The notes beneath the pieces were generated by a model that saw only the letters and a list, made by a program, of their open reading frames with translations, made no database searches and was not told the DNA's origin. A stretch of DNA of 47,127 bases from an uncultured Candidatus Saccharibacteria bacterium. GTDB taxonomy: Bacteria; Patescibacteriota; Minisyncoccia; Minisyncoccales; CG1-02-41-26. Below, piece by piece: positions 27,482 through 45,087 of this stretch (within the stretch, counting starts at the first letter, position 1; each line of letters starts with the position of its first letter). Location of the stretch: contig CAYQUV010000002.1 in assembly GCA_964421005.1 (NCBI GenBank), positions 1-47,127 on the forward strand, written 5' to 3'. Made by a program: the position numbers and the translations under genes.

Positions 27482-27932
27482 TAAAGAAGATAAAGAAAAA
27501 ATAGAAAAGGTAATTAAAGATTTTTTCAAAAAGATGACCTGGGAAGAAAGCCCGGAGAATATTGAGATAAGAGATAATATTGTTTCTTTTGAGTTAGATA
27601 CGGCAACCCCCGAGATTTTAATTGGCAGGAACGGCCAGATTTTGACTAATATTCAGTATCTTCTTTCAAAAATACTGAACAAACAAAGTGAAGAGAAGAT
27701 TTTTGTTGATTTTGATATCAATCATTACAAAAAGAAAAAAACAGATTACCTGAAAGAATTGGCTAAAAATACGGCCGATGAAGTTGCTTTAACGGAAAGA
27801 GAGAGGGTTTTGCCGGCAATGACTCCTTTTGAAAGAAGGATAATCCATCTGGCTTTGAGTGGAAGGGAAGATGTTAAAACGGAAAGCGTGGGAAAAGAGC
27901 CAGAGAGAAGAGTTGTTATTAAACCCGCTTAA
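27474..27932 (+). CDS. Jag/KhpB-type KH plus R3H RNA-binding protein
   Basis: 152 aa. Overlaps the yidC stop by 8 nt. C-terminal R3H motif (MTPFERRIIHLAL). Conserved yidC-jag linkage. Confidence 0.85.
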   Translation: MLNKEDKEKIEKVIKDFFKKMTWEESPENIEIRDNIVSFELDTATPEILIGRNGQILTNIQYLLSKILNKQSEEKIFVDFDINHYKKKKTDYLKELAKNTADEVALTERERVLPAMTPFERRIIHLALSGREDVKTESVGKEPERRVVIKPA

Positions 27933-27953: not shown

Positions 27954-28012
27954 AAAAAATAACCCATTCGTTGATAAGTTATATTTATCAACCTCTCCGC
28001 GGGTTATTTTTT
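27954..28012. terminator. Nested, bidirectional stem-loop between convergent operons
   Basis: Outer arms AAAAAATAACCC (27954..27965) / GGGTTATTTTTT (28001..28012). Inner hairpin GTTGATAA (27970..27977) / TTATCAAC (27985..27992). The right arm overlaps the stop of the 625-aa ORF. Confidence 0.6.
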
Positions 28013-29884: not shown

Positions 29885-31015
29885 TTATTCTCTTTCTAAT
29901 GTTGTTTCGTGGCAGCAAACATAGTTATAATAACTCCCCCCACAAATCCAGGCAATACACTCTTCTTCAGAGAGCCGCTTTTTACATTCAATATTTACCG
30001 CAACTATACCAAAAGGACCTACTGATGTTTCTACTGATGGTTCATCACAGCAAAGGCAATCTATACAATCTTGAGTAAGTTTTCCTTGTCCACAAACCTT
30101 TTTACAGGTTCCGTAAATTCTGTAATTAATTTTGGCTAAAGGAGACGCTTCCTCATCAGGTTTTTTTTGACCTAAACAATCTTTACAATCATCAATCGGG
30201 CCTTTTTCACAAACGCCCCGGCAACTCTCTGACCAGGGCTTTGGCCAATAAACTCCTTGAGCTAAAGCATCGCTGCATCTCATAGGATACCTGGCTCCTA
30301 ACTCTCCGGCTTCAACTTTTTTTCTTTCTATCTCTGACAAACTACAACTTCTTTTTCCTTTTTCAGCCGCCGAATGAAGCCACTCTCTGGCTAAATCTAA
30401 TTTTCTTCTTACAAATTCAGGCCATCTAATTAATTCTCCCACCGATTCTCCCTCTTTTCTTATATCTTCAGTAACTTTGTATTTTTTCTCGCTAAATATA
30501 TCACTAACTTTTTCGTAAGTACCCTCCACACCTCCTTTCATTGTTTCTAAGAATTTATAATAATCTTCAAGGTCGGGACAGGGTTCGCCAATACATTCTT
30601 TGACCGGGCAGAGGGGTATATGGAATCCTACTAAGGGCTTCGGTTTCTTAAAAGGAAGTTTAATTTTAAGCGAAAAATCAGGGGCTTGGTCAATAACCTG
30701 AGGCTGGCAGGCTGAAAAATCGCAAACTTCTTCAGGATTTTTATATAATTCGCTAACCTCACTTTGGGTTTGTTCAATAGCCGAAGAGAGATAACTTCTG
30801 ACATTCTGGAGTTCTGAATAAACTTCTGTCATTAATTTTAAACTTTCCTCAACCGCTTCCCCGGTTGGGATTGGCTCATCGCAAACTATCCTGGTGAGAG
30901 TAAATTCTTGGGCAGAAACCTTGTTTTTTTGATTTGACAGAAAAGCAGAAACCAAAAGGACTGGAACCAGAATTACCATTAAGAAATAAAGAGAAATTTT
31001 AATTTTCTTTGACAT
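29885..31015 (-). CDS. Exported or anchored cysteine-rich protein (376 aa), unknown family
   Basis: N-terminal hydrophobic anchor or signal. About 23 Cys by hand count. Duplicated C-x3-C-x7-C-x2-C unit and CC doublets near the C-terminus. Confidence 0.7.
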   Translation of the reverse strand: MSKKIKISLYFLMVILVPVLLVSAFLSNQKNKVSAQEFTLTRIVCDEPIPTGEAVEESLKLMTEVYSELQNVRSYLSSAIEQTQSEVSELYKNPEEVCDFSACQPQVIDQAPDFSLKIKLPFKKPKPLVGFHIPLCPVKECIGEPCPDLEDYYKFLETMKGGVEGTYEKVSDIFSEKKYKVTEDIRKEGESVGELIRWPEFVRRKLDLAREWLHSAAEKGKRSCSLSEIERKKVEAGELGARYPMRCSDALAQGVYWPKPWSESCRGVCEKGPIDDCKDCLGQKKPDEEASPLAKINYRIYGTCKKVCGQGKLTQDCIDCLCCDEPSVETSVGPFGIVAVNIECKKRLSEEECIAWICGGSYYNYVCCHETTLERE

Positions 31016-34000: not shown

Positions 34001-36304
34001 GACAGTTTCAGTTTTGCTGTCCCAATTATGATAAGCAAAACTTTGCTCGTAGCCGCATTTATTTTTAGCTTTTTGCTCAGCATCGTCAAAATTTTCAGCA
34101 TAAATAGTATAACTGGTGGGTGTCCAGTATTTAGCTTCAGTTACCCCTTCAGCGATTTCAATTGTTGGAAGATTATTAACCTGCTTGGAAAGATTTTCTT
34201 GAGAGGTTTTCAATTGATTAAATAAATTTAACACTTCGCTATAATTTAATCCCGTTTGAGAGAGTTTAGCGCTTGTATCATAGATTTCTTTAAAAGATTT
34301 AAACCAGGTGTTACTGGGGGTATAACAATAAACGGTACAATTTCCAGGACAAGTGATAGTAACTTCTCCAATCTTCCCTCCCAATCCGGGTACTTCCGGA
34401 TGGGAAACAATATTTTCGCCAAATTGTTGAGGGAAAGGAAGAGACCATTCTCTTTTTGGACAGTGGACATTATAAGTGATGCTTTTACTTTTTTCTATTT
34501 TACTTTTGACAAAACAATGCGGTTGGGGAGGAGGCAATTCTGGATCAAAAAAAGTGAAATCTTTTACGCGATAAGGATCATAATATTCTTTAGTTTCGGG
34601 ATAATAAATGATTTGATAATCTCCATCTGGACAACTAAAAATACACTTATCTTCAGAAAGAGAGGCAATACATTTAATTGGTATGGTTGGTAGATTTGAA
34701 TCGGAAATATAACAACTTTTTAATGGAATTTCTGGATCTGGATAAGAAATCTCAGGAATAGAACTTCCGGCAGATTCAGAACACATCATTTTGTAAGTAC
34801 AGCCATTGCCATCTCTGGAAATTCCGATGACAAATTTTTGATATTTAGGACCCGGACATAAATTCCACTCATCTTTTTTAAGTTTTATGCTTTCTTTAAA
34901 ATATTCTGCTCCCTGGGAACCTTCGATTAAGGAACAACAGCGTATATAATGGGCTTTGCCTGACTTTCTTGCTTCTAATCCGCTTCCGCACCAGTCATTA
35001 TTCTTACGGATGGCGACCACATATTGGCCATCTGGACAGGTTTTCCATTGGTTATCTCTAAGAAGTATATCTTCAGAGCATATTTGCTCTGACCAAGAAA
35101 CTGTGCCGGATATACTTGAGCATCTTATTTTATCAAGTTTTCCACTACTGTTTTTATGAACCCCGGTTACATATTTACCCTCAGGACAATAAACCCACTT
35201 TCCTTTTGTTGGTACTTCCAAATCTATCGGAGCTAAAAGGTTTCCGTTTTCTTCTAAACGGGTGACAAGTTGTTGGGGGGTTTCAAGATGGGAAAGATAC
35301 TCACTGATCATTCCCTGCACTTGGTTTCTTTTTGCTGAGCTTGCGGCAAAAAGAAATTTTACACCTTCCTCCTCTTTAAGTTTTTCTCTTAAATCAATAG
35401 TTTCTCTTTGGGCGTCTCCGATTAAACCGTAAGTTTCAGATTTTGCCTGGGAGAATTTTAGAAGACTATCGCTGTAATAATCGAGAAGATTACGAAAACC
35501 CAACTCCCCGCCTTTAACATTCAAAAGAGTGGTAAGAGAATCATAGAAAGTCCTAAGATAGGCTGCTTGCTGGAAAAAATCATTTAAAACTCTGATTCCT
35601 TGATTTATAGTTTCTGGAAGCTGGTAAATTACCCTGCGAATTTCATTGAGCTTACCAACAAAATTGAAAATTTTCCTTAAAGTATTTATCCATCCCATTG
35701 GTAAAAACATTTCAGCGATATCAAGCCAGCTAATTGTATAGCTTACTTCACCGAAACGGAGATTACAGGATGTTTTGCAGTTTCTTAAAAAAAGACATTC
35801 GGAAAGAGGGTCGGTGTTGTTAAAGATTTTTTTAGCGAAATAAACTATAGTGGCGGCTGTTCTCTGGATTCTTATGAAATCCGAACAGGCTTTGCTTAAA
35901 GCCCGTCTTTCTTCTTTTGTCAACATTTCTTCTTCCTGGGGCAAGGGAATGCTTAGTTCGCACATTTCAGGAATTTTTGGCCGGGGAATATCGGGTATGC
36001 CGTCTTTGGTTGTAGGAGTTTGGTCACTGCCGATATTAATGGCTGAAAAAGGATTATAACAGTCTTTATCTAGCACAGATGAGTATCCTAAACCTAACCG
36101 CTTGGGTAAACATTTAATTAAACGCCAGCTTCCCAGCATAATATCTCCATCATCTTCAAGTTTGAGTTCATCGGGCAACCTGATTTTCATTAGAAGGTCT
36201 CTCAGACTGAAAGCCTGAGCTTGTAAAGGAAGGGACTGTAAAAGAAGAGCTAATATTGTAATCAGGCAAATAGTATTTTTAAAATATCCATTCTTGAAAA
36301 ACAT
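31064..36304 (-). CDS. Giant secreted protein (1746 aa) with six copies of a novel Cys-bounded repeat
   Basis: Uninterrupted 5.2-kb ORF. Signal peptide (..LPLQAQA/FS). Repeats of the form W-x-x-CP-[DE]-G-x-[FY]-V-x-[GA]-[IV]-[HR]-K-N-...-CC at aa ~367-511 and ~837-963. Long helical regions and further Cys clusters. Confidence 0.8.
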   Translation of the reverse strand: MFFKNGYFKNTICLITILALLLQSLPLQAQAFSLRDLLMKIRLPDELKLEDDGDIMLGSWRLIKCLPKRLGLGYSSVLDKDCYNPFSAINIGSDQTPTTKDGIPDIPRPKIPEMCELSIPLPQEEEMLTKEERRALSKACSDFIRIQRTAATIVYFAKKIFNNTDPLSECLFLRNCKTSCNLRFGEVSYTISWLDIAEMFLPMGWINTLRKIFNFVGKLNEIRRVIYQLPETINQGIRVLNDFFQQAAYLRTFYDSLTTLLNVKGGELGFRNLLDYYSDSLLKFSQAKSETYGLIGDAQRETIDLREKLKEEEGVKFLFAASSAKRNQVQGMISEYLSHLETPQQLVTRLEENGNLLAPIDLEVPTKGKWVYCPEGKYVTGVHKNSSGKLDKIRCSSISGTVSWSEQICSEDILLRDNQWKTCPDGQYVVAIRKNNDWCGSGLEARKSGKAHYIRCCSLIEGSQGAEYFKESIKLKKDEWNLCPGPKYQKFVIGISRDGNGCTYKMMCSESAGSSIPEISYPDPEIPLKSCYISDSNLPTIPIKCIASLSEDKCIFSCPDGDYQIIYYPETKEYYDPYRVKDFTFFDPELPPPQPHCFVKSKIEKSKSITYNVHCPKREWSLPFPQQFGENIVSHPEVPGLGGKIGEVTITCPGNCTVYCYTPSNTWFKSFKEIYDTSAKLSQTGLNYSEVLNLFNQLKTSQENLSKQVNNLPTIEIAEGVTEAKYWTPTSYTIYAENFDDAEQKAKNKCGYEQSFAYHNWDSKTETVLRVDFDPIIEGLENIDQSSLSEFLTIPIISSQLKTTEDKLTEIEETIEEAKPECIEIHLEAGGWGEWDSGGLEYCPEGMFVDAIHKNDEGQANRIRCCNLPETVPEGERECSSKGLSNSIWNYCPDGRFVTGIHKNKRSKADEMTCCNSVPGGEPGCNEQPLADKELRSCPDGRFVNGIRKNWDAFANKINCCSLPEERIPEQVYQDFDTALDKIGDLKSQIEQLKNHSLRINQIWHKGEEEYSQKKYVEDIIETKEISQDIVLILDNALSALNKIMELKDSLMNTPGLSVKNREKLKEIFSPTGPLEGINQLLFEDPESIKNFVGTYSCPEGSSGEGFLGRLKCFEQENTKTFEQIWHFLNGIEKLNEIIPEFDEIRKLVAEIKPILEIPIPQITDVDLEIGFKGIKTSGGEGFESFKDKFFQSPLSFLKKQFDGIDNSLTNIKKLFDNFIDYGIAPRLSERFSSDKDFITGYVSDERLLEKFRDNPSDELNKIKNKKYPSLRTIIFGNEKMKSGCQKLDLILKMDPKQIECDCKYNTENCEETGEMGKLDKDLLDNKVELTEKCQIRYELVSGLSRKGPSIEGFETTSIEEFAQRVKSEEISDPKQWWKTNICEPVQKRREDRLYFERRSKYTSCTELSEVLTSEIIIEVATKEFRETCSELEYQKGLEQQCNDFAQLKENLADEEWRTEISGLLGIEIPDLTKEENEKQLKEIRELCATELFDIRTPLEGVMEVYSVLLGIKSGTLFFRGIKTTIEDTRRAYESAQQLIAMIEELPEKLKAISETQLEEEGLSFKPLECIPNPAIGYGGLTSVRGGPVCPRIDHLFSVIESNFAIMRQNLNHLNLLRKEEEHWDVKIGDLKMRLLNVWLDYSCGEDRRGEDCLYFKKVTELYNWAEEIKKKTQNVWALATAINFANANCTCGKSYCHLPFCISGLPLTPSPLKDPYCYLVYILRYPFLHQVEVLEGYEWMQPYTK

Positions 36305-36327: not shown

Positions 36328-39300
36328 TTAATAATCAGTTAATCTGTTAAGAGGAGGCCCGTCTACTAAAACATCGCCTAAAAGTTCTAAATGGAAGGTA
36401 AATTTATCAACAATACATTGCATAATACTTACACAGCACTTATTTTCTTTTTCTATTCTTTTTCGGCAGCAAAGCTTCAAATCATCTATCTCTCTATAAT
36501 CCTCTTTGTTTTCATCGCGGTAGCATTTCTTATCTTTTTCTTCTCTTTGGGTCGCTTCCCGGCAGATTCGGCAGCCATCATAAAAGCAGCATTTCTCATC
36601 TTCTTTTCTTTCTCCTATCTCTATTTTACACTCTTCCGTTCCTTTTCCCCGGCATCTTGGAACGCAAACCAACCCTTCTCCTAAGGAACAACATTCTTTG
36701 CTTTCTATTTTATAAACTTCTTCCGGGGATGAGCATTTTCCATTTACTTGTTCCACATTTGTAGCTGGCCTACATACACCCGCCATTTCATCGGCTGTTT
36801 TTCCTCCCAGTTCTACCCCTATTAATTTTCCAAGAGCTTTGCCCAGGATAGCAATACCTTGTTTGGGCCATTCCAGTAAAACTTGGTTAGAAGCATCTCT
36901 GATTCTAGCCTCCATATTAACTGTTGCTGCATTAATTCTTGCGTCAAGATTTTCTTTTGCTATAAAGATATTAGCCACAGTATCGGTTAGGTGAAGAGCT
37001 TTGCCTAGAGTATCTACATAACGTTCTCCTAAAGGAGTAGTCAGCGCTAAATAATCCATAAGAGAAGGAGAGATTGCTATTTTGTCGCTGATAAGTTTTT
37101 GCGGAAGAAGTTCTTCAATTAATTGAGCTGGAGTTTTTGCCAGAATATCTTGGATTCTCTGCCACTCTTCCCAGCCTAATCTTTGATTGAGACAAGCTTC
37201 TCCATGAATAATTTTTCCTTCAGGACCTGTCCCACATTCCGGATCAATTGCTCTAAAAATAAGTCTGATAATTTCCTCACTCATAGGTCCCTGGTTTATC
37301 TGGTTTCCGATTGGAGTCGCCAAGAAATCAGCAAAGGCTATCATATTTTCTCCCATATTTTGTTCTTGGAACGATTCAATCTCAAATCCTTGAGTTTCAA
37401 GTGCTTCTTTTACTCTTTCTAAATCTACCGGTTTGGTGTAAACATCAGCATCTAAATTATCTTCTGTTCCATGCTGATAAAAATAAATAGCTTCTGCCCC
37501 AGCTTGAAGCGCTTTTGATTCTAATTCTTCTTTATCCTCTTTATTAATAACTAAAGAAATTATTCCTTCAAATGTTTGAACTTGGCTCTGTTCCAGATTC
37601 ATTCCTATTTTTCTGAGAAGAGTTACCGGTGTGTCGCCGTATAAATAACGCAGGAGATCATTTAAGGCCTCCGGCCTTTCTTCGGGTTTCAACTTATCTC
37701 TAATCAGGGCAAATAAAATCTGATACTCTTTTGGATGAACATAATAGACAAGGTTTTGGTCAAGGCCAAAGATTTGAGCCGGATTAAAATCCAACAAAAG
37801 ACAGCTTATATATTGCTCTTTGCGCTCTGAGGGAACTTCTTCTCCCGGAGCATCTAAAAGAATCTCTAAAGCTTTGGCAGTGGTTGGCCTTTCCAAACTT
37901 TCCATTGAATACCTGGGACCCCTTGCTTCAGCAAATTCTCTCGCCATTATATTTTCAAAAGTCCAGTCTGGAAAATCTTCTCTGAAGTCTTTGATTACTT
38001 TTCCGCAGACACCATCATGTAAAAGCCCGTAAGGAGTTTGGGCAAGAAAATTTCTTCCCCGGTAATTCTCACCTTTCAAGTAGCGCATTATGCCAAAAGA
38101 AGGCCAGGTAAGGACATCATAGAGCGTTGTATTTTGAGCAATCCAAGCAACAAAAGCTTTGGCAAAATCTTCGCCTTTTTGTTGCTGAAGGGATAAATCA
38201 TTAAGCCTGCTAATGCCTTCTGCTTCTTCTTTTGGCGAGATATCGCTTTTTTCAGGATTTCTTTCTCCCCAATCTCTGGTCCAATCATTGTATAATTCTC
38301 TTTCTTTGATTAATCGGTCAGTATCTTTTCTTATATCTTGATTTGGAAAAGCAACTGTTAACCATTGATAACTTTCTATTTCTTCTTGTTTTTCTTCTGA
38401 AGTTCTTTGGTCTGTTGGTTCTATCAAATTATAATGCTTTTCTATCCCATATTTGAAGAGAGTAAAAGCAATTGAGTTATTAACTGAAATCTTACAGCTT
38501 TCACATTGGAAATTAAGATTATTTGGTAAATCTTGTTTTTTGCAGCCTCCATAACAACCAACTCCGTTACATTCTTCAGCTACTTTTCTGTCTACTCTAT
38601 TACATTCGGTATTCAAGAGATTCTTGATTATTGTTCCGATTGGCCTGTTCCAGCCGGACAAGGGATTTTCACAAGCGTACCATCTGAAATAACAAAAAGC
38701 CTTTTCTGATTCAGACATTAAACTCCACTCCGTTTTTAATGTATCCGGATAGGGGAAAAGTCCTCCTATTTCTTTTGTTCTCACTTTATTACAAGCATCC
38801 TTTATAGTCTGGTTACTTTCTCCTCTTTTTTGGATATTAAGTTCTCCGCAAATAACCTGTTTTGGGGTTCCGATGATGAGGTCTTTGATGTTGGTTATTT
38901 CCGGCCAGAGAAGTTCAGCCGGAGATTTATTCAGATATTTATCCCTGATATCATCAGGTATAAATTCTTCAATTTTATTCTCAAGAGGTTTTTTAACTTC
39001 TTCTGGTAAATATTCAAAAGGCTCTGAATGGAGACGTTTTTCAATTTCGCAAGCATATTTTCCCACATTACTTCCAATTTCTATTTCATCCATTCCTTGA
39101 TAAAGTTTAATTGTTTGTCCTCTTTCTGCTTTTTTACAAATATCGGCTAATATCTGGTCTATATTGCTTTCCAAATACCCGGCTATTTGTTTAGGCAAAA
39201 GGTCTTTAATTGTTGAAGATAAAAATTGATGGAGTTTTTTCTGGAAATCGCTTAGTTGTTTAAGATAAGGTTGTAGAGGGGTTAGAATTTCATCTTCCAC

Positions 39301-41757
39301 CCAAACCTGGGCATATCGGGTTAAGGTATAAACAGAAGTTTGAGTTAGAGCAACTAGAAGTTGCTCAGCGAAATTAACTGTTCCGGCAAGAAATTCTCTT
39401 GTCCATTTTGAAATATTTTCCCTGGTTGGTTTTATACTTCCCCAGTCTATCCACTCTCCATAACACTCGCCACATTCTTTTCCTTTTTCGGCCGTTCTGT
39501 CCCAGCAATAACCAGCATAATGGCAAAAGTCATCTTTATTTTCTTCTGTTTTAAATGAAGGATGGTCGATTCCTTCACTTATTTTATCCCATTCAGTGTT
39601 TATTTCTTCAGGAGTCGGATGAAGACACTTTCCCTCTCCCGTTTTTTCATTTGTAACTTGAAAATATCTTCCTTCTGTTACAAAACATTTCTCTCGAGGA
39701 AGATATTCAGGAGCGTAATCAGGATTATTCTTTTTCCATTTCTCTATTTGTTCTATAGCAGGCATACTTAGCTGGGTGCCTAAATCAGCAACTAATTCCG
39801 CTGTTTTATTATCCGCTCTTTTTTTGAGGTCCTTTAAATTCTCCATCAGAAAAGCATCAACTGTCTGGAGATAGCTTGAAACAAAGAATGGTAAAACTTC
39901 TGTCATTCTTTTTACTAAGTTTTCCCTTAAAAAAGGAACTTGCTCTTCCAAGCTTTGTTTTAAACCTTTCTGTAAAACGGCCGGCAAAAGGTCAATTATT
40001 TCACTGCCCAAAATCTGATTCAGGTCTCTATCAAAAATTACATCTCTTAATTTTGTTTTGAGAATTCTTTGGATTTCTTCGGGCAGGCGCTCTCTTAAAT
40101 CTTCAGTTAAAACATCAACCAGCTTATTGGAAAGGAAATGAGGAGGAATGTTTTGTTTTCTGCAATCCGCTTCGCTCATTCCCTTCTTCCGGCAATCTGC
40201 TATCATTTTGTCGGAAATATCCCTTGTTATTCCTTCTCTCATTTTTTCCAAAAATGCTTCGGTAAAATCTAAATTTTGCCCGGCTAAAGTTTCGCCTAAA
40301 TAGTCGGCCAATCCTTCTCTTATTGTCTTTTCAACAATATCTGAAAGATTTTCTTCATCAAGTATAAATGTCCCTTGACCAAAAGCAGAGCTTAGGCATT
40401 CTTGAATCATTTGTTCAATATCTTCCAAACTAAGCTGGGTTAAAACAGAAAACAAACTTGCCCTCTGGCTCTCCCGGTAAATCCTCTGATTTTCTCTTCT
40501 TATTTCCGGGGGAATGATTTCGCCTTCCAAAGGAGCATAAAAAGTAAAAGGGTCACTGATGGCAGGACTCATTTTTACTTCCTGGCTTTGGGGGAATTGC
40601 TTTGGTTTCTCCAACTCAATTTCATAACCCAAATCTTTTATGGCTTCTTTGTGGCTGAGGAAGTCCTCTTGGAAATCAATTTCTAACAATCCGGAGATTA
40701 AAAAGTTCCCTGTGTTTATTCCTAAAGTTTTTTCAATTAAACCTAATTGGCCAGTGGAAAGTTTTATTTTCTGGCCTTGGAGTTCGGCTAAAAGTTCCTG
40801 GAGTCGTTCCCTTTTTTCTTTTATTTCTCTTAAATCGCACTTTGGAGCTGAGATTTCTTGGCCTTTTTCGTTTATATCCTCTCCGGTTCCGCAATTATAA
40901 CAGCGGGTTAAGCAGACATTCTGTCCTCCCTTTAAAAGTTCTTCGAGTTCCTCTACTGTTTTTGCCCCCATTTTATCCAAAAAACTCTGACTTTTTTTCT
41001 CTTTTTCAGACATCCCGCCGACACATTTTCCTTCTAAACCATCCCATTCTACATGATATTTTGTGTTTCCGCATTGACAATTTTTTAAAGCACTCATTAA
41101 GTTGTTAGTTGTTTCAACTACATCGGTCAAAATACCTATAATCTCAAGCAAAGGAGCTTCAATTAAATGAACCTTATCTCTTGGGAATTCGCCCAAAGAG
41201 AGGAGAACTTCTCTCATCTCTTCATTGGTAGAAGTTGTTTCGTCAAGGTCATTAATTGTTTTTTCAAGGAGTGTTCCGAGAGGAATCTGTAAAAAAGTAA
41301 CTTTTTCAGCAGAAATCAAAGGAGAAACGCCGGGAGTTATTATAGAAGGAGGAGCTTCTACCTTAAAAACAAGCAATTGAGGATTAATTACTGCTAAAAT
41401 TAAATAGGAACAGATTATAATTAAAAGACCTAAAAGTCCTTGGTTTATTCTGGTTTTGGCAATAACTAAAACAGCCGGTTTAGCGCCGGAAATTAAATAT
41501 AAAACTCCGCCATAAATTACAACAGTAACTGCTACAGCGATAGCAAGTACAAAAAATAGGCGGAGAAAATAATTTATATAGAGAGGAAAAGCCTCCTGAG
41601 CGGAAATGATTCCTCCTTCTATTTTTTCTTGAATCTGGTTTGGAGTTTCAGCTCCTGGTATTGGAGGGTATTTTATCTCCAGAGCAAAAGCAGAATTAGC
41701 CCCGAAAAGAAAAACAATCAAAAGAGAAACAAAAAGAAATTTTTTAAACCTTACCAT
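36328..41757 (-). CDS. Giant protein (1809 aa): signal peptide plus T4SS-pilin-like module fused to a roughly 1650-aa ectodomain with a Cys-rich tail
   Basis: Uninterrupted 5.4-kb ORF. Signal (..ANSAFA/LE), YPPIPGAE, two TM helices with GGVLYLISGAKPAVLVIAKTRINQGLLGLLIIICSYLILAVINPQLL. The last ~150 aa contain 17 Cys by hand count, including four CC doublets. Confidence 0.8.
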   Translation of the reverse strand: MVRFKKFLFVSLLIVFLFGANSAFALEIKYPPIPGAETPNQIQEKIEGGIISAQEAFPLYINYFLRLFFVLAIAVAVTVVIYGGVLYLISGAKPAVLVIAKTRINQGLLGLLIIICSYLILAVINPQLLVFKVEAPPSIITPGVSPLISAEKVTFLQIPLGTLLEKTINDLDETTSTNEEMREVLLSLGEFPRDKVHLIEAPLLEIIGILTDVVETTNNLMSALKNCQCGNTKYHVEWDGLEGKCVGGMSEKEKKSQSFLDKMGAKTVEELEELLKGGQNVCLTRCYNCGTGEDINEKGQEISAPKCDLREIKEKRERLQELLAELQGQKIKLSTGQLGLIEKTLGINTGNFLISGLLEIDFQEDFLSHKEAIKDLGYEIELEKPKQFPQSQEVKMSPAISDPFTFYAPLEGEIIPPEIRRENQRIYRESQRASLFSVLTQLSLEDIEQMIQECLSSAFGQGTFILDEENLSDIVEKTIREGLADYLGETLAGQNLDFTEAFLEKMREGITRDISDKMIADCRKKGMSEADCRKQNIPPHFLSNKLVDVLTEDLRERLPEEIQRILKTKLRDVIFDRDLNQILGSEIIDLLPAVLQKGLKQSLEEQVPFLRENLVKRMTEVLPFFVSSYLQTVDAFLMENLKDLKKRADNKTAELVADLGTQLSMPAIEQIEKWKKNNPDYAPEYLPREKCFVTEGRYFQVTNEKTGEGKCLHPTPEEINTEWDKISEGIDHPSFKTEENKDDFCHYAGYCWDRTAEKGKECGECYGEWIDWGSIKPTRENISKWTREFLAGTVNFAEQLLVALTQTSVYTLTRYAQVWVEDEILTPLQPYLKQLSDFQKKLHQFLSSTIKDLLPKQIAGYLESNIDQILADICKKAERGQTIKLYQGMDEIEIGSNVGKYACEIEKRLHSEPFEYLPEEVKKPLENKIEEFIPDDIRDKYLNKSPAELLWPEITNIKDLIIGTPKQVICGELNIQKRGESNQTIKDACNKVRTKEIGGLFPYPDTLKTEWSLMSESEKAFCYFRWYACENPLSGWNRPIGTIIKNLLNTECNRVDRKVAEECNGVGCYGGCKKQDLPNNLNFQCESCKISVNNSIAFTLFKYGIEKHYNLIEPTDQRTSEEKQEEIESYQWLTVAFPNQDIRKDTDRLIKERELYNDWTRDWGERNPEKSDISPKEEAEGISRLNDLSLQQQKGEDFAKAFVAWIAQNTTLYDVLTWPSFGIMRYLKGENYRGRNFLAQTPYGLLHDGVCGKVIKDFREDFPDWTFENIMAREFAEARGPRYSMESLERPTTAKALEILLDAPGEEVPSERKEQYISCLLLDFNPAQIFGLDQNLVYYVHPKEYQILFALIRDKLKPEERPEALNDLLRYLYGDTPVTLLRKIGMNLEQSQVQTFEGIISLVINKEDKEELESKALQAGAEAIYFYQHGTEDNLDADVYTKPVDLERVKEALETQGFEIESFQEQNMGENMIAFADFLATPIGNQINQGPMSEEIIRLIFRAIDPECGTGPEGKIIHGEACLNQRLGWEEWQRIQDILAKTPAQLIEELLPQKLISDKIAISPSLMDYLALTTPLGERYVDTLGKALHLTDTVANIFIAKENLDARINAATVNMEARIRDASNQVLLEWPKQGIAILGKALGKLIGVELGGKTADEMAGVCRPATNVEQVNGKCSSPEEVYKIESKECCSLGEGLVCVPRCRGKGTEECKIEIGERKEDEKCCFYDGCRICREATQREEKDKKCYRDENKEDYREIDDLKLCCRKRIEKENKCCVSIMQCIVDKFTFHLELLGDVLVDGPPLNRLTDY

Positions 41758-41809: not shown

Positions 41810-42190
41810 TTAGCTGCTTTTTAACTCCGAATAAACCATTAGAATGAAGCCGGGGTAAATATCTCCCAAAACAGGGCATATTTCTACCAATAACTTTTTC
41901 CACTGTTTTTTAAGAAACTTTTTAACTAAACCTTGAGCTGCTCCTCTTTCTTTCCCAGATTTTGGGTTTTTAATAGACATACTTCCTGAACGGAAAAATA
42001 TCCACATTCCTATAACAGTAAATCCAAAAACATTGACAATTTGTCCCAGCAAGACTCCAATCCCGAAAGCAGCTACTAAAATTATGGAAATCCAACCTGC
42101 CACGTCAAACAGTCCCGCTATAAAGAGCATCATAATTCCCTCCGGACTAAAAAGAGCTCCTTTTGGATTGTTTGTTTCCTCTCTCATCAT
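41810..42190 (-). CDS. Small polytopic membrane protein (126 aa) of the T4SS-like operon
   Basis: Two or three hydrophobic helices separated by a basic loop (KNPKSGKERGAAQGLVKKFLKKQWKK). Lies 12 nt downstream of the VirB4-like gene. Confidence 0.6.
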   Translation of the reverse strand: MMREETNNPKGALFSPEGIMMLFIAGLFDVAGWISIILVAAFGIGVLLGQIVNVFGFTVIGMWIFFRSGSMSIKNPKSGKERGAAQGLVKKFLKKQWKKLLVEICPVLGDIYPGFILMVYSELKSS

Positions 42191-42202: not shown

Positions 42203-43990
42203 TTATTTCTTTAATTTTTTCTTGAGCTCTTTTATTTTCTTTACTTCCTCGGGAGAAGAAGTGATAATCTGGTCTTCAGCATAACTCGCTACTACCTTAA
42301 GAGCAACCCTTTTTTGGCCGGCAATAAAAATTCCTTCTCCAACATCACATTCTAGAAGAAGATATTTTTCTTCGTCAGCCAGGTTGAAAGTTTTTTGAAC
42401 AAAATCAATAGTAGCGGGACTTTGTTTCATTAGAAACTGTAAAGAAGAATTAGTGATAATCGGTTGACCGTAAGCCGATTTCATAAAATCGCCGATGTCC
42501 TGAGTAATAGTTGAAACACCCAGCCAATATTTCCTGGCTCTTTTACAGATGCCGAACAAAAACGAAGCGCCGTCTTCCGATTGCATTATCCACCATGCTT
42601 CATCAACCAGCAGAATTCTTTTTTTCAACTCGGCTCTAATACTGTTCCAGATATATCTTAAAATAATAAACATAGCCATTGGCCTTAATTCCTCCTCCAT
42701 ATCTCTAATTCCAAAGCTGACTAAGCTCTTTTCCATTGAGACATTTGTCGGATTGTTAAAGAATTGGGCATAATTTCCGGTGGTGAATTTTCTTACTCTT
42801 TCAACCAGAGATTCTGCTCCCTCCATACCTTCAAGAATTGTTTGGAAATCCGACATTAGAGGAATTCTCTCTTTCCATTTGCTCGGGTCGGATTCGGGGG
42901 TAATATCTCTGGCTTTGTAAGTTTCAATAATTGCTCTATCAATAATAGAATCTTCTTCCGGAGTTAATCCCCCCAACATTATTCTGAAAAGGCCTACCAG
43001 ATTTATTGCGTTTGATCTTAGAGTATCCTCCGGTTTCTCGTCTTCGGTTGGAGGAGGAAGATCAAAAGGATTTAAATGATGGGGTGAAGTCAGAGAAACA
43101 TTAAAGAAAGAGCCACCTACTGCTTCAGCCAGCCATTGATATTCGTTTTCCGGGTCTATTATTATCACCGGAACATCCTGCATCAGATATCTCAAAGCTT
43201 CTAGTTTACAAAAATACGATTTCCCGCTGCCGCTTTTTGCGAAAACGCACATATTACCATTTTCTAAAGTAAACCTATCAAAGAGAACCAAAGAATTATT
43301 ATGTTGGTTTATGCCGTAGAGAATTCCCTCGTTAGCACTTAAATCCGGGGAAACGAAAGGGAAGATACTTGACAAAGGAGCGGTATTCATCGGCGTGTGA
43401 ACCAGAATTTCATCCAGACCGTAGGGTGAAGTTGAGATAAAACCTTCCTTTTCTCTTAACAGAGTCGGTTTTATATAAATCAATCTTGACTCAAAAACCG
43501 ACCTCATTCTAATTTCAATATCCCTTAATTCTTTTTGGCTGTCTCCGTAAACAGTGATATAAAGCCCTAATCTGAAAACTCTTTCACTTGCCGTTTGGAG
43601 GGCATCTCTTAAGTTTTCAATATCCTTGTATGCGGTTTCCAGAGTCGGGTCGCGGATAAGGCCTTTCTCTTCTCTTTCTATCAGTTCGGCTTGAACTTCA
43701 GTTATTTTTTTTCTAAGTTGTCTTAAAATTACTGCTGAATCTACTGGATGGATATGAAAAGAGATATCCAAAGGATGGTTAATATTGATAATTGGCGACA
43801 TCCAGCCGGTTGAAAGATATCTCGGATAAGAAAAAACAAAAAAAGTTTTGGAAAATCTTTCTCCCAATCTTAAATAATTTTGAGATACTTCAACCGACGA
43901 TGGAGCAACAATATCCTCAATTTTTATTTCTTCTTTTTTTAATTTTAATCCTTTAATTTCTCTTTCTTTTTTTAAAAAGGGCAGTTTCAT
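42203..43990 (-). CDS. virB4: VirB4/TraC-family T4SS ATPase (short, 595 aa)
   Basis: Walker A FAKSGSGKSYF (about aa 250). Walker B ILLVDEAWWIM. Downstream GVSTITQDIGDF. N-terminal ..YLRLGERFSKTFFVFSYPRYLSTGWMSPI..PLDISFHIHP typical of VirB4 pre-ATPase domains. Confidence 0.85.
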   Translation of the reverse strand: MKLPFLKKEREIKGLKLKKEEIKIEDIVAPSSVEVSQNYLRLGERFSKTFFVFSYPRYLSTGWMSPIININHPLDISFHIHPVDSAVILRQLRKKITEVQAELIEREEKGLIRDPTLETAYKDIENLRDALQTASERVFRLGLYITVYGDSQKELRDIEIRMRSVFESRLIYIKPTLLREKEGFISTSPYGLDEILVHTPMNTAPLSSIFPFVSPDLSANEGILYGINQHNNSLVLFDRFTLENGNMCVFAKSGSGKSYFCKLEALRYLMQDVPVIIIDPENEYQWLAEAVGGSFFNVSLTSPHHLNPFDLPPPTEDEKPEDTLRSNAINLVGLFRIMLGGLTPEEDSIIDRAIIETYKARDITPESDPSKWKERIPLMSDFQTILEGMEGAESLVERVRKFTTGNYAQFFNNPTNVSMEKSLVSFGIRDMEEELRPMAMFIILRYIWNSIRAELKKRILLVDEAWWIMQSEDGASFLFGICKRARKYWLGVSTITQDIGDFMKSAYGQPIITNSSLQFLMKQSPATIDFVQKTFNLADEEKYLLLECDVGEGIFIAGQKRVALKVVASYAEDQIITSSPEEVKKIKELKKKLKK

Positions 43991-44004: not shown

Positions 44005-44649
44005 TCATTTAATAAGTTCAGGTAATATTTCAGGATAATAGCCATATTCTGCTTCTTTTGGATGATGTAAACTCCAGAAGAGTTCAATTAATTCGGGGGT
44101 GGTTAAGGGAACGGCTGTCAGCCCGCAGCGTCTCAAACCAATAGCTACAAATTCCATTCTTTGCCAGAGTTGCTCTTTGCATCTTTTAAAATTTTCTTCG
44201 GTTAGACCAAATTCTCCTTTTTTGCCAATTCCTTTTAATAAACCGCCGGTTACCCCTATTGCTTCGGAAAGAGTGAAGGGAACAACGATTAAGAATTCCT
44301 TTCTCATAATTGTTCCTTCTTCGACCAGCCCTTCAACGAATTTCCGATACTCAGCAGTTTGAACTTTCAGAAGTTCATTCTGCTGGTTTTTCTCAAGCTC
44401 TTTTAATTTGTCAAAATAACCGGTGATATTTAATCTCCTTGATTGGACCACAATTTGGCAAGAAAAATCTAATGAATTTAAAAAACTCTGAAATTGATAA
44501 ATGGTTGCTTTTTGTTCTTCTTCCGATTTTAAATCAAAGTTTATTGAAGAAACCAAAAGAATCCCTCTTAAAGCTTTATTTCTTAAAACAATCACTCCCT
44601 CTCTGATTTCGGCTATTTCTAAGAACTTTTGGGATGGAGTTTTAAACAT
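44005..44649 (-). CDS. 214-aa soluble protein resembling the extreme N-terminal domain of long (Gram-positive-type) VirB4 ATPases
   Basis: FLEIAEIREGVIVLRNKALRGILLVSSINFDLKSEEEQKATIYQFQSFLNSLDFSCQIVVQS matches, from memory, the N-terminal pattern of PrgJ/TcpF/Orf16-type VirB4s. No Walker motif. Sits between the VirB3-like and VirB4-like genes. Confidence 0.5.
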   Translation of the reverse strand: MFKTPSQKFLEIAEIREGVIVLRNKALRGILLVSSINFDLKSEEEQKATIYQFQSFLNSLDFSCQIVVQSRRLNITGYFDKLKELEKNQQNELLKVQTAEYRKFVEGLVEEGTIMRKEFLIVVPFTLSEAIGVTGGLLKGIGKKGEFGLTEENFKRCKEQLWQRMEFVAIGLRRCGLTAVPLTTPELIELFWSLHHPKEAEYGYYPEILPELIK

Positions 44650-44679: not shown

Positions 44680-45087
44680 TTATCTTAACCCTCTTTCTAT
44701 TTTGGAAGAAAGTTTCCTTAGTTTACTTTCGGGAGAAACTTTTAAAGGAGCCTCTTCCTTTTCTTTTTTCTTAACCCCTTCTTTTTCTAAAAGTTTAATA
44801 ACCGGTTTCTCTTTTTTTTCCCAGATGTATCTTTTTGCCGAAATAAAATATCCAAAAAACTGTCCTACTAAGTGATAGAGAGGTATTCCTTCAATTCTAA
44901 ACAGTAAAAGAGCCGCAGTTCCCCCTCCGACAATAAAAAGAACGAAAACAAAGGTAGAGAGAGGTAAAAGATAATACAAAACAAACAAAATTATACCAAC
45001 TATGCCGAGATAAGCTAACTGCTTGAAAGTTAAAAAAGCAAAAATCTTTGTTTCTCTTTCTAAAAATTTTGGTACCTTAAACCTCAT
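44680..45087 (-). CDS. PrgI-family (VirB3-like) two-TM protein, first gene of the operon
   Basis: 135 aa. ..KIFAFLTFKQLAYLGIVGIILFVLYY.. followed by a second TM and a basic tail. Size, topology and position immediately upstream of VirB4 match VirB3/PrgI. Confidence 0.6.
   Translation of the reverse strand: MRFKVPKFLERETKIFAFLTFKQLAYLGIVGIILFVLYYLLPLSTFVFVLFIVGGGTAALLLFRIEGIPLYHLVGQFFGYFISAKRYIWEKKEKPVIKLLEKEGVKKKEKEEAPLKVSPESKLRKLSSKIERGLR

What the first reader, a model, noticed from the sequence alone, without database searches (positions are those of the whole stretch)
41353..41757. Paralogous T4SS-pilin-like N-terminal modules used as membrane 'handles' for 1809-aa and 625-aa proteins
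The first ~135 aa of the 1809-aa ORF and the first ~125 aa of the 625-aa ORF (29507..29881) share the same layout. Each has a signal peptide, then YP(P/A)(I/P)PG(A/T)E, then hydrophobic helix 1, then a (A/G)G(V/I)(L/M)YL(I/T)S.G.PA.. loop with a basic residue cluster, then helix 2 ending in SYLIL..INPQL(L/V).

Signal peptide plus two helices is the TrbC/VirB2 pilin topology. Classical VirB2 pilins, however, are small proteins with nothing attached. Here the module is fused to ectodomains 4 to 12 times its size.

If the modules polymerise or dock like pilins, the fusions would decorate or cap a filament. If they do not, the pilin fold has been co-opted as a membrane anchor. The similarity is also visible at nucleotide level around the INPQL region.
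Basis: partly seen in the sequence, partly recalled or inferred. Interest (0 to 1): 0.72.

Follow-up and report, generated by a model that had tools for sequence, protein, structure and literature searches.

The report
Pilin-like hairpin anchoring giant T4SS proteins
Two large surface proteins in the type IV secretion operon of an ultrasmall (Patescibacteria) bacterium start with the same conserved two-helix membrane module of the "T4SS pilin" family, and this fused form is common across the phylum, so many proteins counted as "pilins" there are really large anchored surface proteins.

Summary
The N-termini of the 1809-aa and 625-aa ORFs are true paralogues (38% identity over 112 aa, E 4e-18). 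Each has a Sec signal peptide, an acidic LE..YP..PG lead, a two-helix membrane hairpin with a basic turn, and an INPQL cap.

The module belongs to Pfam PF18895 (T4SS_pilin). The 625-aa protein scores 25.4 bits against a cut-off of 26.6. Of 68 fused homologues, 48 hit at E<=1e-3, and four further fused relatives pass the cut-off. It lies in a monoderm-type T4SS operon (PrgI, TrsD-like, VirB4) beside dnaA. No similarity to classical Agrobacterium-type VirB2 was detectable, since a reversed control scored the same.

The fusion is not peculiar to this genome. In 77 Patescibacteria loci, 111 of 130 complete module ORFs carry tails of 200 aa or more, and 6 have tails under 30 aa. The tails form two homology groups, type A (1809-like, just after virB4) and type B (625-like, further downstream). 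A published census lists at least one such 604-aa protein as VirB2.

Most likely the hairpin is a T4SS-docking or oligomerising anchor that displays Cys-rich ectodomains. A role as minor or tip pilin is not excluded. This is a new variant of a known kind.

The parts
36328..41757 (-). Type A gene: 1809-aa protein made of the pilin-like N-terminal module plus a 1674-aa ectodomain with 49 Cys.
   Evidence: ORF and translation. Full-length orthologues are P0082 (1852 aa, 38% identity over 1857 columns), P0066, P0037, P0049, P0028 and P0035. The tail falls in homology cluster A with 107 members. No PDB sequence match was found.
41683..41757 (-). Signal peptide of the 1809-aa protein (residues 1-25, ending ...NSAFA, then LEIKYP).
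   Evidence: It has a basic n-region, a hydrophobic core and A-x-A at -3/-1, read directly from the sequence. The hydropathy segment covers residues 1-28. AF2 models it as helix 2-25. The cleavage itself is inferred.
41593..41682 (-). Conserved acidic extracellular lead LE-x-x-YP-x-x-PG (residues 26-55).
   Evidence: E27 and P31 are invariant. E, Y, P, P and G are conserved at 90% or more across 68 fused homologues. The net charge is -3.
41374..41601 (-). Transmembrane hairpin of the 1809-aa protein (residues 53-128): helix 1, the SGAKP turn with K/R, helix 2, and the INPQL cap.
   Evidence: AF2 gives H53-89 and H94-124 with pLDDT 86-93. PF18895 matches residues 60-123 to profile positions 8-70 of 71, with 14.2 bits and E 0.047. 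Invariant positions are Y63, G84, A100, I104, G110, L111, I113, I124, N125, P126 and L128.
28004..29881 (-). Type B gene: 625-aa protein made of the pilin-like N-terminal module plus an all-beta ectodomain.
   Evidence: ORF and translation. Full-length orthologues are P0039 (54% identity), P0047, P0078, P0108, P0087, P0085, P0102, P0042, P0093 and P0145. The AF2 model has pLDDT 76.7. Foldseek gives a weak beta-gamma-crystallin-like match: 3hzb, probability 0.98-0.99, E 0.03. The tail falls in cluster B with 95 members.
29519..29734 (-). Transmembrane hairpin of the 625-aa protein (residues 50-121), including the TSTGNP turn, R94/R96, and INPQL at 117-121.
   Evidence: PF18895 matches residues 50-108 to profile positions 5-62 of 71, with 25.4 bits and E 1.5e-5 against a cut-off of 26.6. 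NF045849, the Mbov_0395 pilin-like family, gives E 1.4e-4. AF2 gives H49-81 and H86-116 in a model that lacks Met1.
29804..29881 (-). Signal peptide of the 625-aa protein (residues 1-26, ending ...LFSFA).
   Evidence: Read from the sequence. The hydropathy segment covers residues 1-32. Cleavage is inferred.
44680..45087 (-). PrgI / VirB3-like membrane protein, the first gene of the T4SS operon.
   Evidence: PF12666 PrgI matches with E 9.6e-8 and 32.9 bits against a cut-off of 27.
44005..44649 (-). 214-aa TrsD-like protein, equivalent to the N-terminal part of VirB4.
   Evidence: NF041427 TrsD gives E 5.6e-6. NF045975 VirB4_plasma positions 109-211 give E 3.1e-8.
42203..43990 (-). VirB4-type T4SS ATPase (595 aa).
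   Evidence: NF045971 (CD1110-family VirB4) scores 358 bits against a cut-off of 325, E 1e-106. PF19044 TraG P-loop gives E 7.8e-24.
41810..42190 (-). 126-aa small membrane protein lying between virB4 and the type A gene.
   Evidence: Hydrophobic segments cover residues 18-66 and 100-119. There is no family hit. Homologues occupy the same position after virB4 in 14 related loci.
31064..36304 (-). 1746-aa secreted Cys-rich protein (61 Cys), conserved between the type A and type B genes.
   Evidence: It has a signal-peptide-like N-terminus. Orthologues lie in the same position in L002, L004, L006, L010, L015 and L019. There is no Pfam or PDB match.
29885..31015 (-). 376-aa protein with an N-terminal anchor and a Cys-rich body (23 Cys), immediately upstream of the type B gene.
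   Evidence: The hydrophobic segment covers residues 3-30. Orthologues precede type B genes in L003, L004, L006, L019 and L033.

Best explanation
The two N-termini are paralogous copies of a module of about 105 mature residues from the Patescibacteria 'T4SS_pilin' (PF18895) superfamily. The module works as a specific T4SS-associated membrane hairpin, not as a free pilin.

Proposed mechanism:
1. The Sec signal peptide is removed by signal peptidase I.
2. Helix 1 crosses the membrane outwards-to-inwards.
3. The short K/R-bearing turn stays in the cytoplasm.
4. Helix 2 returns to the outside and ends at INPQL.
5. The large Cys-rich ectodomain therefore lies outside the cell.

The hairpins of the type A protein (1809 aa, encoded right after virB4 and a 126-aa membrane protein) and the type B protein (625 aa, at the end of the operon) pack with each other and/or with the PrgI-VirB4 membrane platform. 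This tethers their ectodomains to the secretion machine. There the ectodomains form its extracellular, wall-spanning or host-contacting part. In related lineages the same module carries M23 peptidase, lamin-tail or lysozyme-like (SLT_3) domains.

What is shown: the homology of the two modules, PF18895 family membership of their relatives, the topology features, the T4SS context, and the conservation of two fused families.

What is inferred: signal peptide cleavage, docking or oligomerisation, the extracellular structural or adhesive role, and the absence of polymerisation into a long filament.
For: Paralogy: BLASTP E 4e-18, and there are only two copies in the window.

Family membership:
- PF18895 scores 25.4 bits for the 625-aa module and 14.2 bits for the 1809-aa module.
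- 48 of 68 fused homologues hit PF18895 at E<=1e-3.
- Fused proteins of 302-860 aa pass the gathering score.
- NF045849, a pilin-like conjugal transfer protein family, hits 5 of 12 modules, best E 6.1e-9.

Context: the genes lie in the operon PrgI, TrsD-like, VirB4.

Conserved architecture:
- Of 154 proteins held from the homologue and profile searches, 99 have a single N-terminal module with a tail of 150 aa or more.
- In 77 genome loci, 111 of 130 complete module ORFs have tails of 200 aa or more, and 6 have tails under 30 aa. Of 103 module ORFs in loci that hold virB4, 85 lie within 6 kb of it.
- The tails form two groups, A and B. The gene order is virB4, then A, then B. Only 7 of 67 same-locus pairs have homologous tails.
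- The nearest-neighbour module has the same tail type in 165 of 196 cases, yet identity is about 45% both within and between types. This points to a common constraint on the module.

Topology and location:
- Invariant polar and small residues occur in both helices, which a plain anchor would not need.
- The charge distribution is N-out, loop-in.
- The tails contain about 3.4% Cys, against 0-0.9% in cytoplasmic proteins of the window, which fits an extracellular location.

Indications against a free pilin:
- Tandem poly-hairpin proteins with a single signal peptide exist (P0021, six hairpins; P0034, ten by HMM). This indicates hairpins that pack side by side in the membrane.
- No stand-alone pilin gene lies in the 47-kb window.
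Against: - Nothing here tests assembly, localisation or processing directly.
- Small stand-alone PF18895 pilins do exist in some of the same genomes. In Saccharibacteria they form an essential array. A real filament into which the fused proteins insert therefore remains possible.
- The rest of this genome was not available, so a major pilin gene elsewhere cannot be excluded.
- The loci were retrieved with the pattern YL[IVF]Lx[VT]INPQ, and the 150 listed representatives are the best scorers of a profile built from fused proteins. The fused-to-alone ratio therefore holds for this subfamily, not for all of PF18895.
- The ectodomain functions are unknown. There is only a weak beta-gamma-crystallin resemblance for type B and nothing for type A.
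Confidence: 0.55

Rival explanations
1. The fused proteins are minor pilins that initiate or cap a filament. A pilus built mainly of small PF18895 pilins encoded elsewhere in the genome would incorporate one or a few type A or B subunits through their hairpins. These would sit at the tip or base and display the ectodomain as an adhesin or host-contact device. This would parallel VirB5 tips, or the modular minor pilins of type IV pili.
For: - The module is homologous to small pilins of the same Pfam family.
- The C-terminus emerges on the outside, so an appended domain could be displayed.
- Small stand-alone pilins occur in some related genomes.
- An essential small-pilin array exists in Saccharibacteria T4SS loci.
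- Modular minor pilins are established for type IV pili (PMC8179133).
- The strong conservation of both helices fits subunit-subunit packing.
Against: - No pilus has yet been seen for any Patescibacteria T4SS. The reviews read describe it as a possibility.
- No small pilin gene lies in this window or in the closest syntenic loci within 10 kb either side.
- Poly-hairpin proteins with many transmembrane helices are hard to extract into a filament.
- Ectodomains of 500-2100 aa are large even for tip subunits.
Confidence: 0.22
2. The fused proteins are pro-proteins. They are cleaved after helix 2, near INPQL. This either releases the ectodomain as a secreted effector or wall hydrolase, or produces a mature small pilin, as C-terminal trimming does for RP4 TrbC.
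For: - INPQL is an invariant boundary motif exactly where the conserved module ends and the variable tail begins.
- Some relatives carry hydrolase or peptidase domains that could act at a distance.
- That TrbC and VirB2 are C-terminally processed and cyclised is the reviewer's own knowledge and was not tested here.
Against: - No conserved cleavage-type motif follows INPQL. The next ~20 columns are variable.
- No TraF-like or other dedicated peptidase was recognised among the eight operon products.
- An Asn-Pro bond is not a known self-cleaving site (own knowledge).
- Tail type and module co-evolve stably, which fits a permanently joined protein.
Confidence: 0.1
3. The hairpins are themselves the membrane channel. 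In operons that lack a recognisable VirB6, the A and B hairpins, together with the 126-aa protein and PrgI, would build the translocation pore. The poly-hairpin proteins would be its covalently linked form.
For: - No VirB6/PrgH, VirB8 or coupling protein was recognised among the eight operon products.
- Tandem proteins with several to ten hairpins exist.
- The hairpins are as conserved between types as within them.
Against: - VirB6 homologues are reported as widespread in Patescibacteria and may lie outside this window.
- Only part of the genome is visible.
- There is no structural evidence.
Confidence: 0.08
4. The similarity reflects only generic signal-anchor sequences with no specific role.
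For: The region is mostly hydrophobic. Its best PDB and Foldseek matches are an unrelated transmembrane hairpin, HtrII, at E about 0.1.
Against: - Invariant E, Y, P, G, N and Q positions are present.
- The pairwise E-value is 4e-18.
- 10,660 database representatives match at E<=1e-10.
- The module stays about 45% identical across unrelated tails and many Patescibacteria lineages.
Confidence: 0.03

Closest known systems
Patescibacteria VirB2-like pilins, Pfam PF18895 T4SS_pilin (for example the essential six-gene pilin array SEML1_0014-0019 of Southlakia epibionticum; Wang et al. 2023, PMC10633639; census in Quinonero-Coronel et al. 2025, PMC12102498)
   Same: - The same Pfam family at the level of relatives.
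- The same signal peptide plus two-helix layout.
- The same T4SS neighbourhood (PrgI, TrsD, VirB4) and the same origin-proximal location.
- The published census already counts at least one fused protein as VirB2: KKP64605.1, 604 aa.
   Different: - The described pilins are small. The five Southlakia genes whose lengths appear in the fetched table are 312-558 bp.
- Here the module is only the first 7-20% of proteins of 625 and 1809 aa.
- The fused proteins form two conserved groups with fixed positions in the operon, rather than a variable tandem array.
- The two window modules themselves fall just below (25.4 bits) and well below (14.2 bits) the Pfam cut-off of 26.6.
Classical TrbC/VirB2 conjugative pilins (PF04956; Agrobacterium VirB2, RP4 TrbC, F TraA)
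   Same: - A cleavable signal peptide.
- Two hydrophobic helices joined by a short basic loop.
- Both ends outside.
- Encoded next to virB3 and virB4.
   Different: - No detectable sequence or profile similarity. hhalign gave probability 0.3% and the reversed control scored the same. A VirB2 HMM gave E>0.4.
- 120 VirB2 relatives are 102-193 aa with nothing attached.
- No cyclisation or processing enzyme was seen.
- The host is a monoderm.
Mbov_0395 family pilin-like conjugal transfer protein of Mycoplasma ICEs (NCBIfam NF045849)
   Same: - Weak but repeated profile matches. The 625-aa protein gives E 1.4e-4. Five of 12 modules match, best E 6.1e-9.
- It also belongs to a monoderm T4SS whose VirB4 (Mbov_0397 family) matches this operon's PrgI, TrsD-like and VirB4 products in series.
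   Different: - The model is about 80 positions long and describes a small stand-alone protein.
- Scores are below its cut-off of 40 bits.
Modular minor pilins of type IV pili (for example Streptococcus sanguinis PilB; PMC8179133)
   Same: The concept is shared: a pilin module with a large functional domain grafted on its C-terminus, used for adhesion.
   Different: - It is an unrelated filament system.
- Those pilins have a class III signal peptide and a single N-terminal helix.
- Here the signal peptide is an ordinary A-x-A type and the module is a two-helix hairpin.
- This is an analogy only.
Membrane-anchored T4SS wall hydrolases of Gram-positive systems (PrgK, CwlT, TcpG; VirB1-like)
   Same: - Large extracellular proteins encoded near virB4 and held at the membrane by an N-terminal hydrophobic segment.
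- Some relatives of the module proteins carry M23 or lysozyme-like (SLT_3) domains, or are named SLT-domain proteins by UniRef.
- In Southlakia the two genes after virB4 are peptidase and lysozyme proteins.
   Different: - The two window proteins have no recognisable hydrolase domain.
- Their anchor is a conserved pilin-family hairpin, not a simple transmembrane segment.
- The anchoring mode of PrgK, CwlT and TcpG is the reviewer's own knowledge and was not tested here.

Membership tests
Pfam PF18895 T4SS_pilin (Patescibacteria VirB2-like pilin) | The HMM match reaches the Pfam gathering score of 26.6 bits. | tested here: inconclusive
   The 625-aa module scores 25.4 bits (E 1.5e-5) and the 1809-aa module 14.2 bits (E 0.047), both below the cut-off. 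However, 48 of 68 fused homologues hit at E<=1e-3. Fused relatives P0275, P0290, P0325 and P0314 score 30.5, 29.9, 27.1 and 26.9 bits. Close relatives P0001-P0004 and P0006 carry the precomputed PF18895 annotation.
Pfam PF18895 T4SS_pilin (Patescibacteria VirB2-like pilin) | A signal peptide followed by two hydrophobic helices joined by a short basic loop. | tested here: met
   AF2 models show the hairpins. Hydropathy and charge counts agree.
Pfam PF18895 T4SS_pilin (Patescibacteria VirB2-like pilin) | Encoded in a T4SS gene cluster near virB4 and prgI. | tested here: met
   The operon is PrgI, TrsD-like, VirB4, 126-aa protein, type A and so on to type B. Of 103 homologous ORFs in loci that hold virB4, 85 lie within 6 kb of it.
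Pfam PF18895 T4SS_pilin (Patescibacteria VirB2-like pilin) | A small stand-alone protein, as in the described pilin arrays. | tested here: not met
   The proteins are 1809 and 625 aa. The median length of module ORFs in related loci is 462 aa.
TrbC/VirB2 conjugative pilins (PF04956) | Sequence or profile similarity to VirB2/TrbC. | tested here: not met
   There is no PF04956 hit at E<=10. hhalign of 118 modules against 120 VirB2 sequences gave probability 0.3%. The hairpin-only profile scored 11.9 against 13.0 for the reversed control, and a VirB2 HMM gave a best E of 0.41. The VirB2 set was Agrobacterium-type only, so the wider family was not fully sampled.
TrbC/VirB2 conjugative pilins (PF04956) | Fold similarity to solved pilin structures. 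| tested here: inconclusive
   Foldseek against the PDB listed no pilin and nothing at E<=0.001. Two-helix hairpins are poorly discriminated by this method.
TrbC/VirB2 conjugative pilins (PF04956) | Polymerises into an extracellular pilus, with C-terminal processing or cyclisation. | not testable with these tools
   This needs microscopy or proteomics. No conserved motif follows INPQL, and no TraF-like peptidase was recognised among the eight operon products.
NCBIfam NF045849, Mbov_0395 family pilin-like conjugal transfer protein | The HMM match reaches the curated cut-off of 40 bits. | tested here: not met
   The 625-aa protein scores 21.5 bits, E 1.4e-4. Five of 12 modules match at E<=0.01, best 6.1e-9. 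The families are related, but this is not membership.
Modular type IV pilins (type 4 filament superfamily) | A class III signal peptide cut by prepilin peptidase and a single N-terminal hydrophobic helix. | tested here: not met
   The signal peptides end in A-F-A and S-F-A followed by L/V, with no G/F-x-x-x-E motif. The module has two helices.

The most novel reading that the evidence does not exclude
The hairpins of the type A and type B proteins, and the covalently chained poly-hairpin relatives, assemble into a VirB2-lattice-like tube or stub that crosses the envelope of these monoderm ultrasmall cells. Their large Cys-rich ectodomains would form an outer sheath or cap. This would be a decorated, conjugative-pilus-like organelle not described before, and it could be the actual host-contact conduit of the Patescibacteria T4SS. 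As a corollary, many published 'VirB2 pilin arrays' of non-Saccharibacteria lineages would be sets of such large subunits rather than pilins.
Probability: 0.2. Interest if true: 0.85.

Novelty: new variant of a known kind. Interest (0 to 1): 0.62.

Why it matters
Patescibacteria make up a large share of bacterial diversity and appear to depend on host cells. Their T4SS is the only one shown to be essential for growth, and reviews now highlight its 'VirB2-like pilins' as hinting at the first pilus of a monoderm T4SS.

This work shows that, in the INPQL subfamily sampled here, the pilin-family hairpin is mostly the N-terminal handle of two conserved families of large extracellular proteins. These are encoded directly after virB4 across many lineages.

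That changes what should be looked for. It may not be a thin filament of small subunits. It may instead be a machine whose outer part is built from hairpin-anchored giant proteins, some of which carry wall-degrading or adhesive domains.

It also warns that counting pilins by Pfam hit alone mixes small pilins with 300-2200-aa proteins. And it gives concrete targets, the type A and type B proteins, for structural and genetic work on how these cells attach to and feed on hosts.

Tried and rejected
- **Direct homology to classical VirB2.** A VirB2 set was collected and compared by hhalign and HMM. There was no signal above a reversed control, so membership in PF04956 is not claimed.
- **Fold search of the isolated module against the PDB**. 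Only non-significant helical matches came back. The method is uninformative for a two-helix hairpin, especially with the signal peptide included.
- **PDB sequence searches** with the module profile and with the 1809-aa and 1746-aa proteins. The only result was an HtrII transmembrane hairpin at E about 0.09, which was taken as generic.
- **Source contig look-up for the 625-aa protein**. It is not on record. The look-up for P0039 gave only a 2.5-kb contig.
- **Gene-calling artefact, for example merged ORFs.** This was rejected. Deposited proteins have identical boundaries, full-length orthologues exist, and internal modules of the tandem proteins lack signal peptides.
- **Recent duplication or gene conversion between the two modules.** This was rejected. 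The DNA similarity is weak outside the SYLIL..INPQL codons, and modules group by tail type across genomes.
- **Search for further module copies or small pilins in the window**. None were found.
- **DnaA-box scan to define oriC**. There was no obvious cluster near dnaA, and this was not pursued.
- **Literature search for descriptions of fused T4SS pilins**. None were found in the library searched.

Full report
**1. The observation**

The window is AT-rich (G+C about 0.34). A long minus-strand operon runs from 45087 down to 28004.

BLASTP of their first ~245 residues gives one alignment. It covers residues 26-137 against 30-130, with 38% identity and E 4e-18, and nothing significant lies beyond it.

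A profile made from the two modules and ten homologues (A1) finds only these two ORFs in a six-frame translation of the window. Their E-values are 6e-55 and 2e-44, and the next best is 0.33.

The conserved positions include E27, P31, Y63, G84, A100, I104, G110, N125 and P126. P, Y, A, G and P stay invariant across 68 homologues. This is homology and not a generic hydrophobic resemblance.

At DNA level the similarity is weak except for runs around the SYLIL..INPQL codons.

**2. Topology**

Hydropathy shows only three strong hydrophobic segments in each protein: the signal peptide and two helices. The 1809-aa protein has one further segment just at the threshold, at residues 196-214.

The signal peptides end in NSAFA and LFSFA, which are ordinary A-x-A type sites. 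The stretch before helix 1 is acidic (-3 and -4) and the inter-helix turn is basic (+3 and +2).

AF2 models give a confident hairpin. It is H53-89/H94-124 at pLDDT 86-93 for the 1809-aa module, and H49-81/H86-116 in the full 625-aa model.

The inferred topology is N-terminus out, turn in the cytoplasm and C-terminus out. This places the ectodomains outside the cell. Their cysteine content fits that: 49 and 8 Cys, with a family median of 3.4%, against 0-0.9% in VirB4, DnaA, DnaN and PolA.

**3. Genomic context**

The operon products, in order, are:
- PrgI/VirB3-like (PF12666, E 1e-7)
- a 214-aa TrsD-like protein
- a VirB4 ATPase (NF045971, 358 bits against a cut-off of 325)
- a 126-aa membrane protein
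- the 1809-aa protein
- a 1746-aa secreted Cys-rich protein
- a 376-aa anchored Cys-rich protein
- the 625-aa protein

Just downstream of the operon's last gene lie rnpA, yidD, yidC and jag on the plus strand, followed by dnaA and dnaN. The system is therefore chromosomal and origin-proximal. This matches what has been reported for Patescibacteria T4SSs (PMC12102498).

No relaxase, coupling protein, VirB6 or VirB8 was recognised among the proteins scanned.

**4. Family assignment**

Against Pfam, the 625-aa module scores 25.4 bits (E 1.5e-5) on PF18895 T4SS_pilin, where the cut-off is 26.6. The 1809-aa module scores 14.2 bits (E 0.047).

At family level the assignment is clear:
- Close relatives carry the precomputed PF18895 annotation.
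- 48 of 68 fused homologues hit it at E<=1e-3.
- Fused proteins of 302, 488, 604 and 860 aa pass the gathering score.
- NCBIfam NF045849, the 'Mbov_0395 family pilin-like conjugal transfer protein' of Mycoplasma ICEs, matches 5 of 12 modules, best E 6.1e-9. This suggests that such hairpin proteins are native to monoderm T4SSs.

The link to classical VirB2 could not be shown. I collected 120 Agrobacterium-type VirB2 proteins, all PF04956 and 102-193 aa.
- hhalign of 118 modules against them gives probability 0.3%.
- A hairpin-only profile scores 11.9, against 13.0 for the reversed control.
- A VirB2 HMM gives a best E of 0.41.
- Foldseek against the PDB returns no pilin.

The only bridge is in the literature. 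Two small pilins of Southlakia epibionticum are reported to hit both PF18895 (about 1e-14) and PF04956 (about 1e-6) (Table S2 of PMC10633639).

**5. How common is the fusion?**

An exhaustive profile search of 1.84 billion representative proteins finds 57,771 proteins at E<=1e-3 and 10,660 at E<=1e-10.

| Architecture | Number |
|---|---|
| One N-terminal module plus a tail of 150 aa or more | 99 |
| Two to ten tandem modules | 38 |
| Tail of 30-149 aa | 12 |
| Tail under 30 aa | 5 |

Both window proteins have full-length orthologues. For the 1809-aa protein these include P0082 (1852 aa) and P0035 (2080 aa). For the 625-aa protein there are ten, at 35-54% identity.

A scan of one genome per GTDB species returned 77 loci. 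Nearly all are titled as Patescibacteria lineages or unclassified MAGs (Nealsonbacteria, Staskawiczbacteria, Wildermuthbacteria, Uhrbacteria, Nomurabacteria, Taylorbacteria, Jorgensenbacteria, Adlerbacteria and others). A few carry automatic Gammaproteobacteria or Burkholderiales labels. In these loci:
- 136 ORFs carry the module.
- Of 130 complete ORFs, 111 have tails of 200 aa or more and 6 have tails under 30 aa. The median length is 462 aa.
- 60 loci hold virB4 within 10 kb.
- 85 of 103 module ORFs in those loci lie within 6 kb of virB4, and 73 lie downstream on the same strand.

Deposited protein records have exactly the same boundaries as my ORF calls.

Two caveats apply. The loci were found with the pattern YL[IVF]Lx[VT]INPQ, and the listed representatives are the top scorers of a profile built from fused proteins. 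The ratio therefore describes this subfamily, not all of PF18895.

**6. Two conserved families**

The tails cluster into two large homology groups. Type A contains the 1809-aa protein and has 107 members, with complete ORFs of 360-2239 aa. Type B contains the 625-aa protein and has 95 members, with ORFs of 322-776 aa.

Only 7 of 67 same-locus pairs have homologous tails. A locus therefore typically has one of each type.

Type A genes mostly start 0-550 bp after the virB4 stop, with the 126-aa gene in between where it is present. Type B genes follow further downstream. The observed gene-order patterns are AB in 13 loci, AAB in 4 and A alone in 9.

The whole gene order of the window recurs in L002, L003, L004, L006, L010 and L015.

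A module's nearest neighbour carries the same tail type in 165 of 196 cases. Yet identity is about 45% both within and between types. The fusions are therefore old and stable, and both kinds of module are held under the same constraint.

**7. The ectodomains**

The type B ectodomain is predicted to be all-beta (pLDDT 76.7). It shows a weak beta-gamma-crystallin resemblance: 3hzb, probability 0.98-0.99, E 0.03. A few relatives hit Crystall and Inhibitor_I36 in Pfam.

The type A ectodomain has no convincing match. The only hit is a borderline TACO1/YebC-like stretch at residues 1380-1464.

Relatives carry Peptidase_M23 (OGZ78420.1, 1214 aa), a lamin tail domain (PIV65056.1, 860 aa), SLT_3 and C39-like peptidase domains. 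In Southlakia the two genes after virB4 encode a 1113-aa DD-peptidase-like protein and a 643-aa lysozyme and cysteine-peptidase protein. These are positional analogues of the proteins studied here.

**8. Interpretation**

The data fit best with a specific membrane hairpin that docks or oligomerises at the T4SS and displays large extracellular domains (confidence 0.55). Four observations speak for more than a plain anchor:
- the invariant polar and small residues in both helices;
- the equal conservation of the module across unrelated tails;
- the fixed positions of the genes in the operon;
- the tandem poly-hairpin proteins with a single signal peptide, such as P0021 with six hairpins and P0034 with ten by HMM.

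Two observations speak against a conventional filament of these subunits: the size of the tails, and the absence of a small pilin gene in the window and in the closest syntenic loci.

A minor or tip-pilin role remains open (confidence 0.22). Small pilins do exist in some related genomes and are essential in Saccharibacteria. Processing after INPQL (0.10) and a channel-forming role (0.08) are less likely. A generic signal anchor is effectively excluded.

**9. Novelty**

Patescibacteria VirB2-like pilins and their arrays are known. The texts read do not mention that the family is largely fused to large ectodomains. Yet at least one such protein, KKP64605.1 (604 aa), is listed as 'VirB2' through PF18895 in the published census.

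I rate the finding as a new variant of a known kind. Its interest is moderate to high, because it changes how the proposed 'pilus' of this essential secretion system should be viewed.

Noticed in passing
P0021 (552 aa), P0034 (1147 aa), P0020 (820 aa), P0064 (1775 aa), P0013 (640 aa): Some single polypeptides contain 3-10 tandem copies of the hairpin module. They have one N-terminal signal peptide and short linkers, giving predicted polytopic proteins with many transmembrane helices. P0013 has three modules, each with the LE..YP lead, followed by a Cys-rich tail. These look like covalently chained 'pilins'. Their biology is unknown.
   Followed up: partly
window 31064-36304 (-), residues ~365-985 of the 1746-aa protein: A motif of about 45 aa recurs at least six times: W-x-x-C-P-[DE]-G-x-[FY]-V-x-[GA]-[IV]-[HR]-K-N ... 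C-[CS]. The copies start at residues 373, 423, 483, 843, 892 and 938. The protein has no Pfam or PDB match. This appears to be an undescribed Cys-rich repeat in a T4SS-linked secreted protein.
   Followed up: partly
window 44680-45087, 44005-44649, 42203-43990 (-): PrgI, the 214-aa protein and the 595-aa ATPase match consecutive parts of the 894-position Mycoplasma ICE VirB4 model NF045975 (positions 15-117, 109-211 and 282-893). What is one fused VirB3-TrsD-VirB4 protein in Mycoplasma ICEs is therefore three genes here.
   Followed up: no
window 41810-42190 (-): A 126-aa membrane protein with no signal peptide and no family hit lies between virB4 and the type A gene. Homologues occupy the same place in 14 related loci. 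It is probably an unnamed core component.
   Followed up: partly
window 22838-27932: The T4SS operon ends about 70 bp from jag-yidC-yidD-rnpA (plus strand) and about 2.4 kb from dnaA-dnaN (minus strand). The interval 24001-26000 has the lowest G+C in the window (0.264). The system is origin-proximal, as reported for other Patescibacteria. A DnaA-box scan showed no clear cluster.
   Followed up: partly
window 46163-46717 and 46736-47101 (+): An IS481-family transposase is split into two ORFs, one with the HTH and LZ_Tnp_IS481 domains and one with rve_3. It lies just beyond the upstream end of the T4SS operon. It may be frameshifted or decaying.
   Followed up: no
Supplementary Table S3 of PMC12102498; L057:8356-10167: KKP64605.1 is a 604-aa protein that UniRef names 'Transglycosylase SLT domain-containing'. 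Its hairpin lies at residues ~314-392, in the middle of the protein rather than at the N-terminus. It is listed as 'VirB2' in the published census. Pilin counts based on PF18895 therefore include large multi-domain proteins.
   Followed up: yes
L032:14085-14621 (-), L036:5141-5611 (-), L039:18639-19121 (-): Small stand-alone pilins of a different subtype (N-terminal GLVPCG...C.FCHF, C-terminal ...W..I.CPI) lie on the opposite strand, several kb from the fused genes. They may be the real small pilins of those genomes.
   Followed up: no
window 36328-41757 (-), residues 1380-1475: There is a borderline match to the TACO1/YebC second and third domain (PF01709, 28 bits against a cut-off of 27; TIGR01033, E 2.7e-5) inside an otherwise unassignable extracellular region. 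It may be spurious.
   Followed up: no
L051:6478-7059, L062:9869-10321: Even the shortest members of the INPQL subfamily (193 and 150 aa) carry a short Cys-rich tail of about 30-70 aa after INPQL. Tail length thus forms a continuum from about 30 to over 2000 aa.
   Followed up: no
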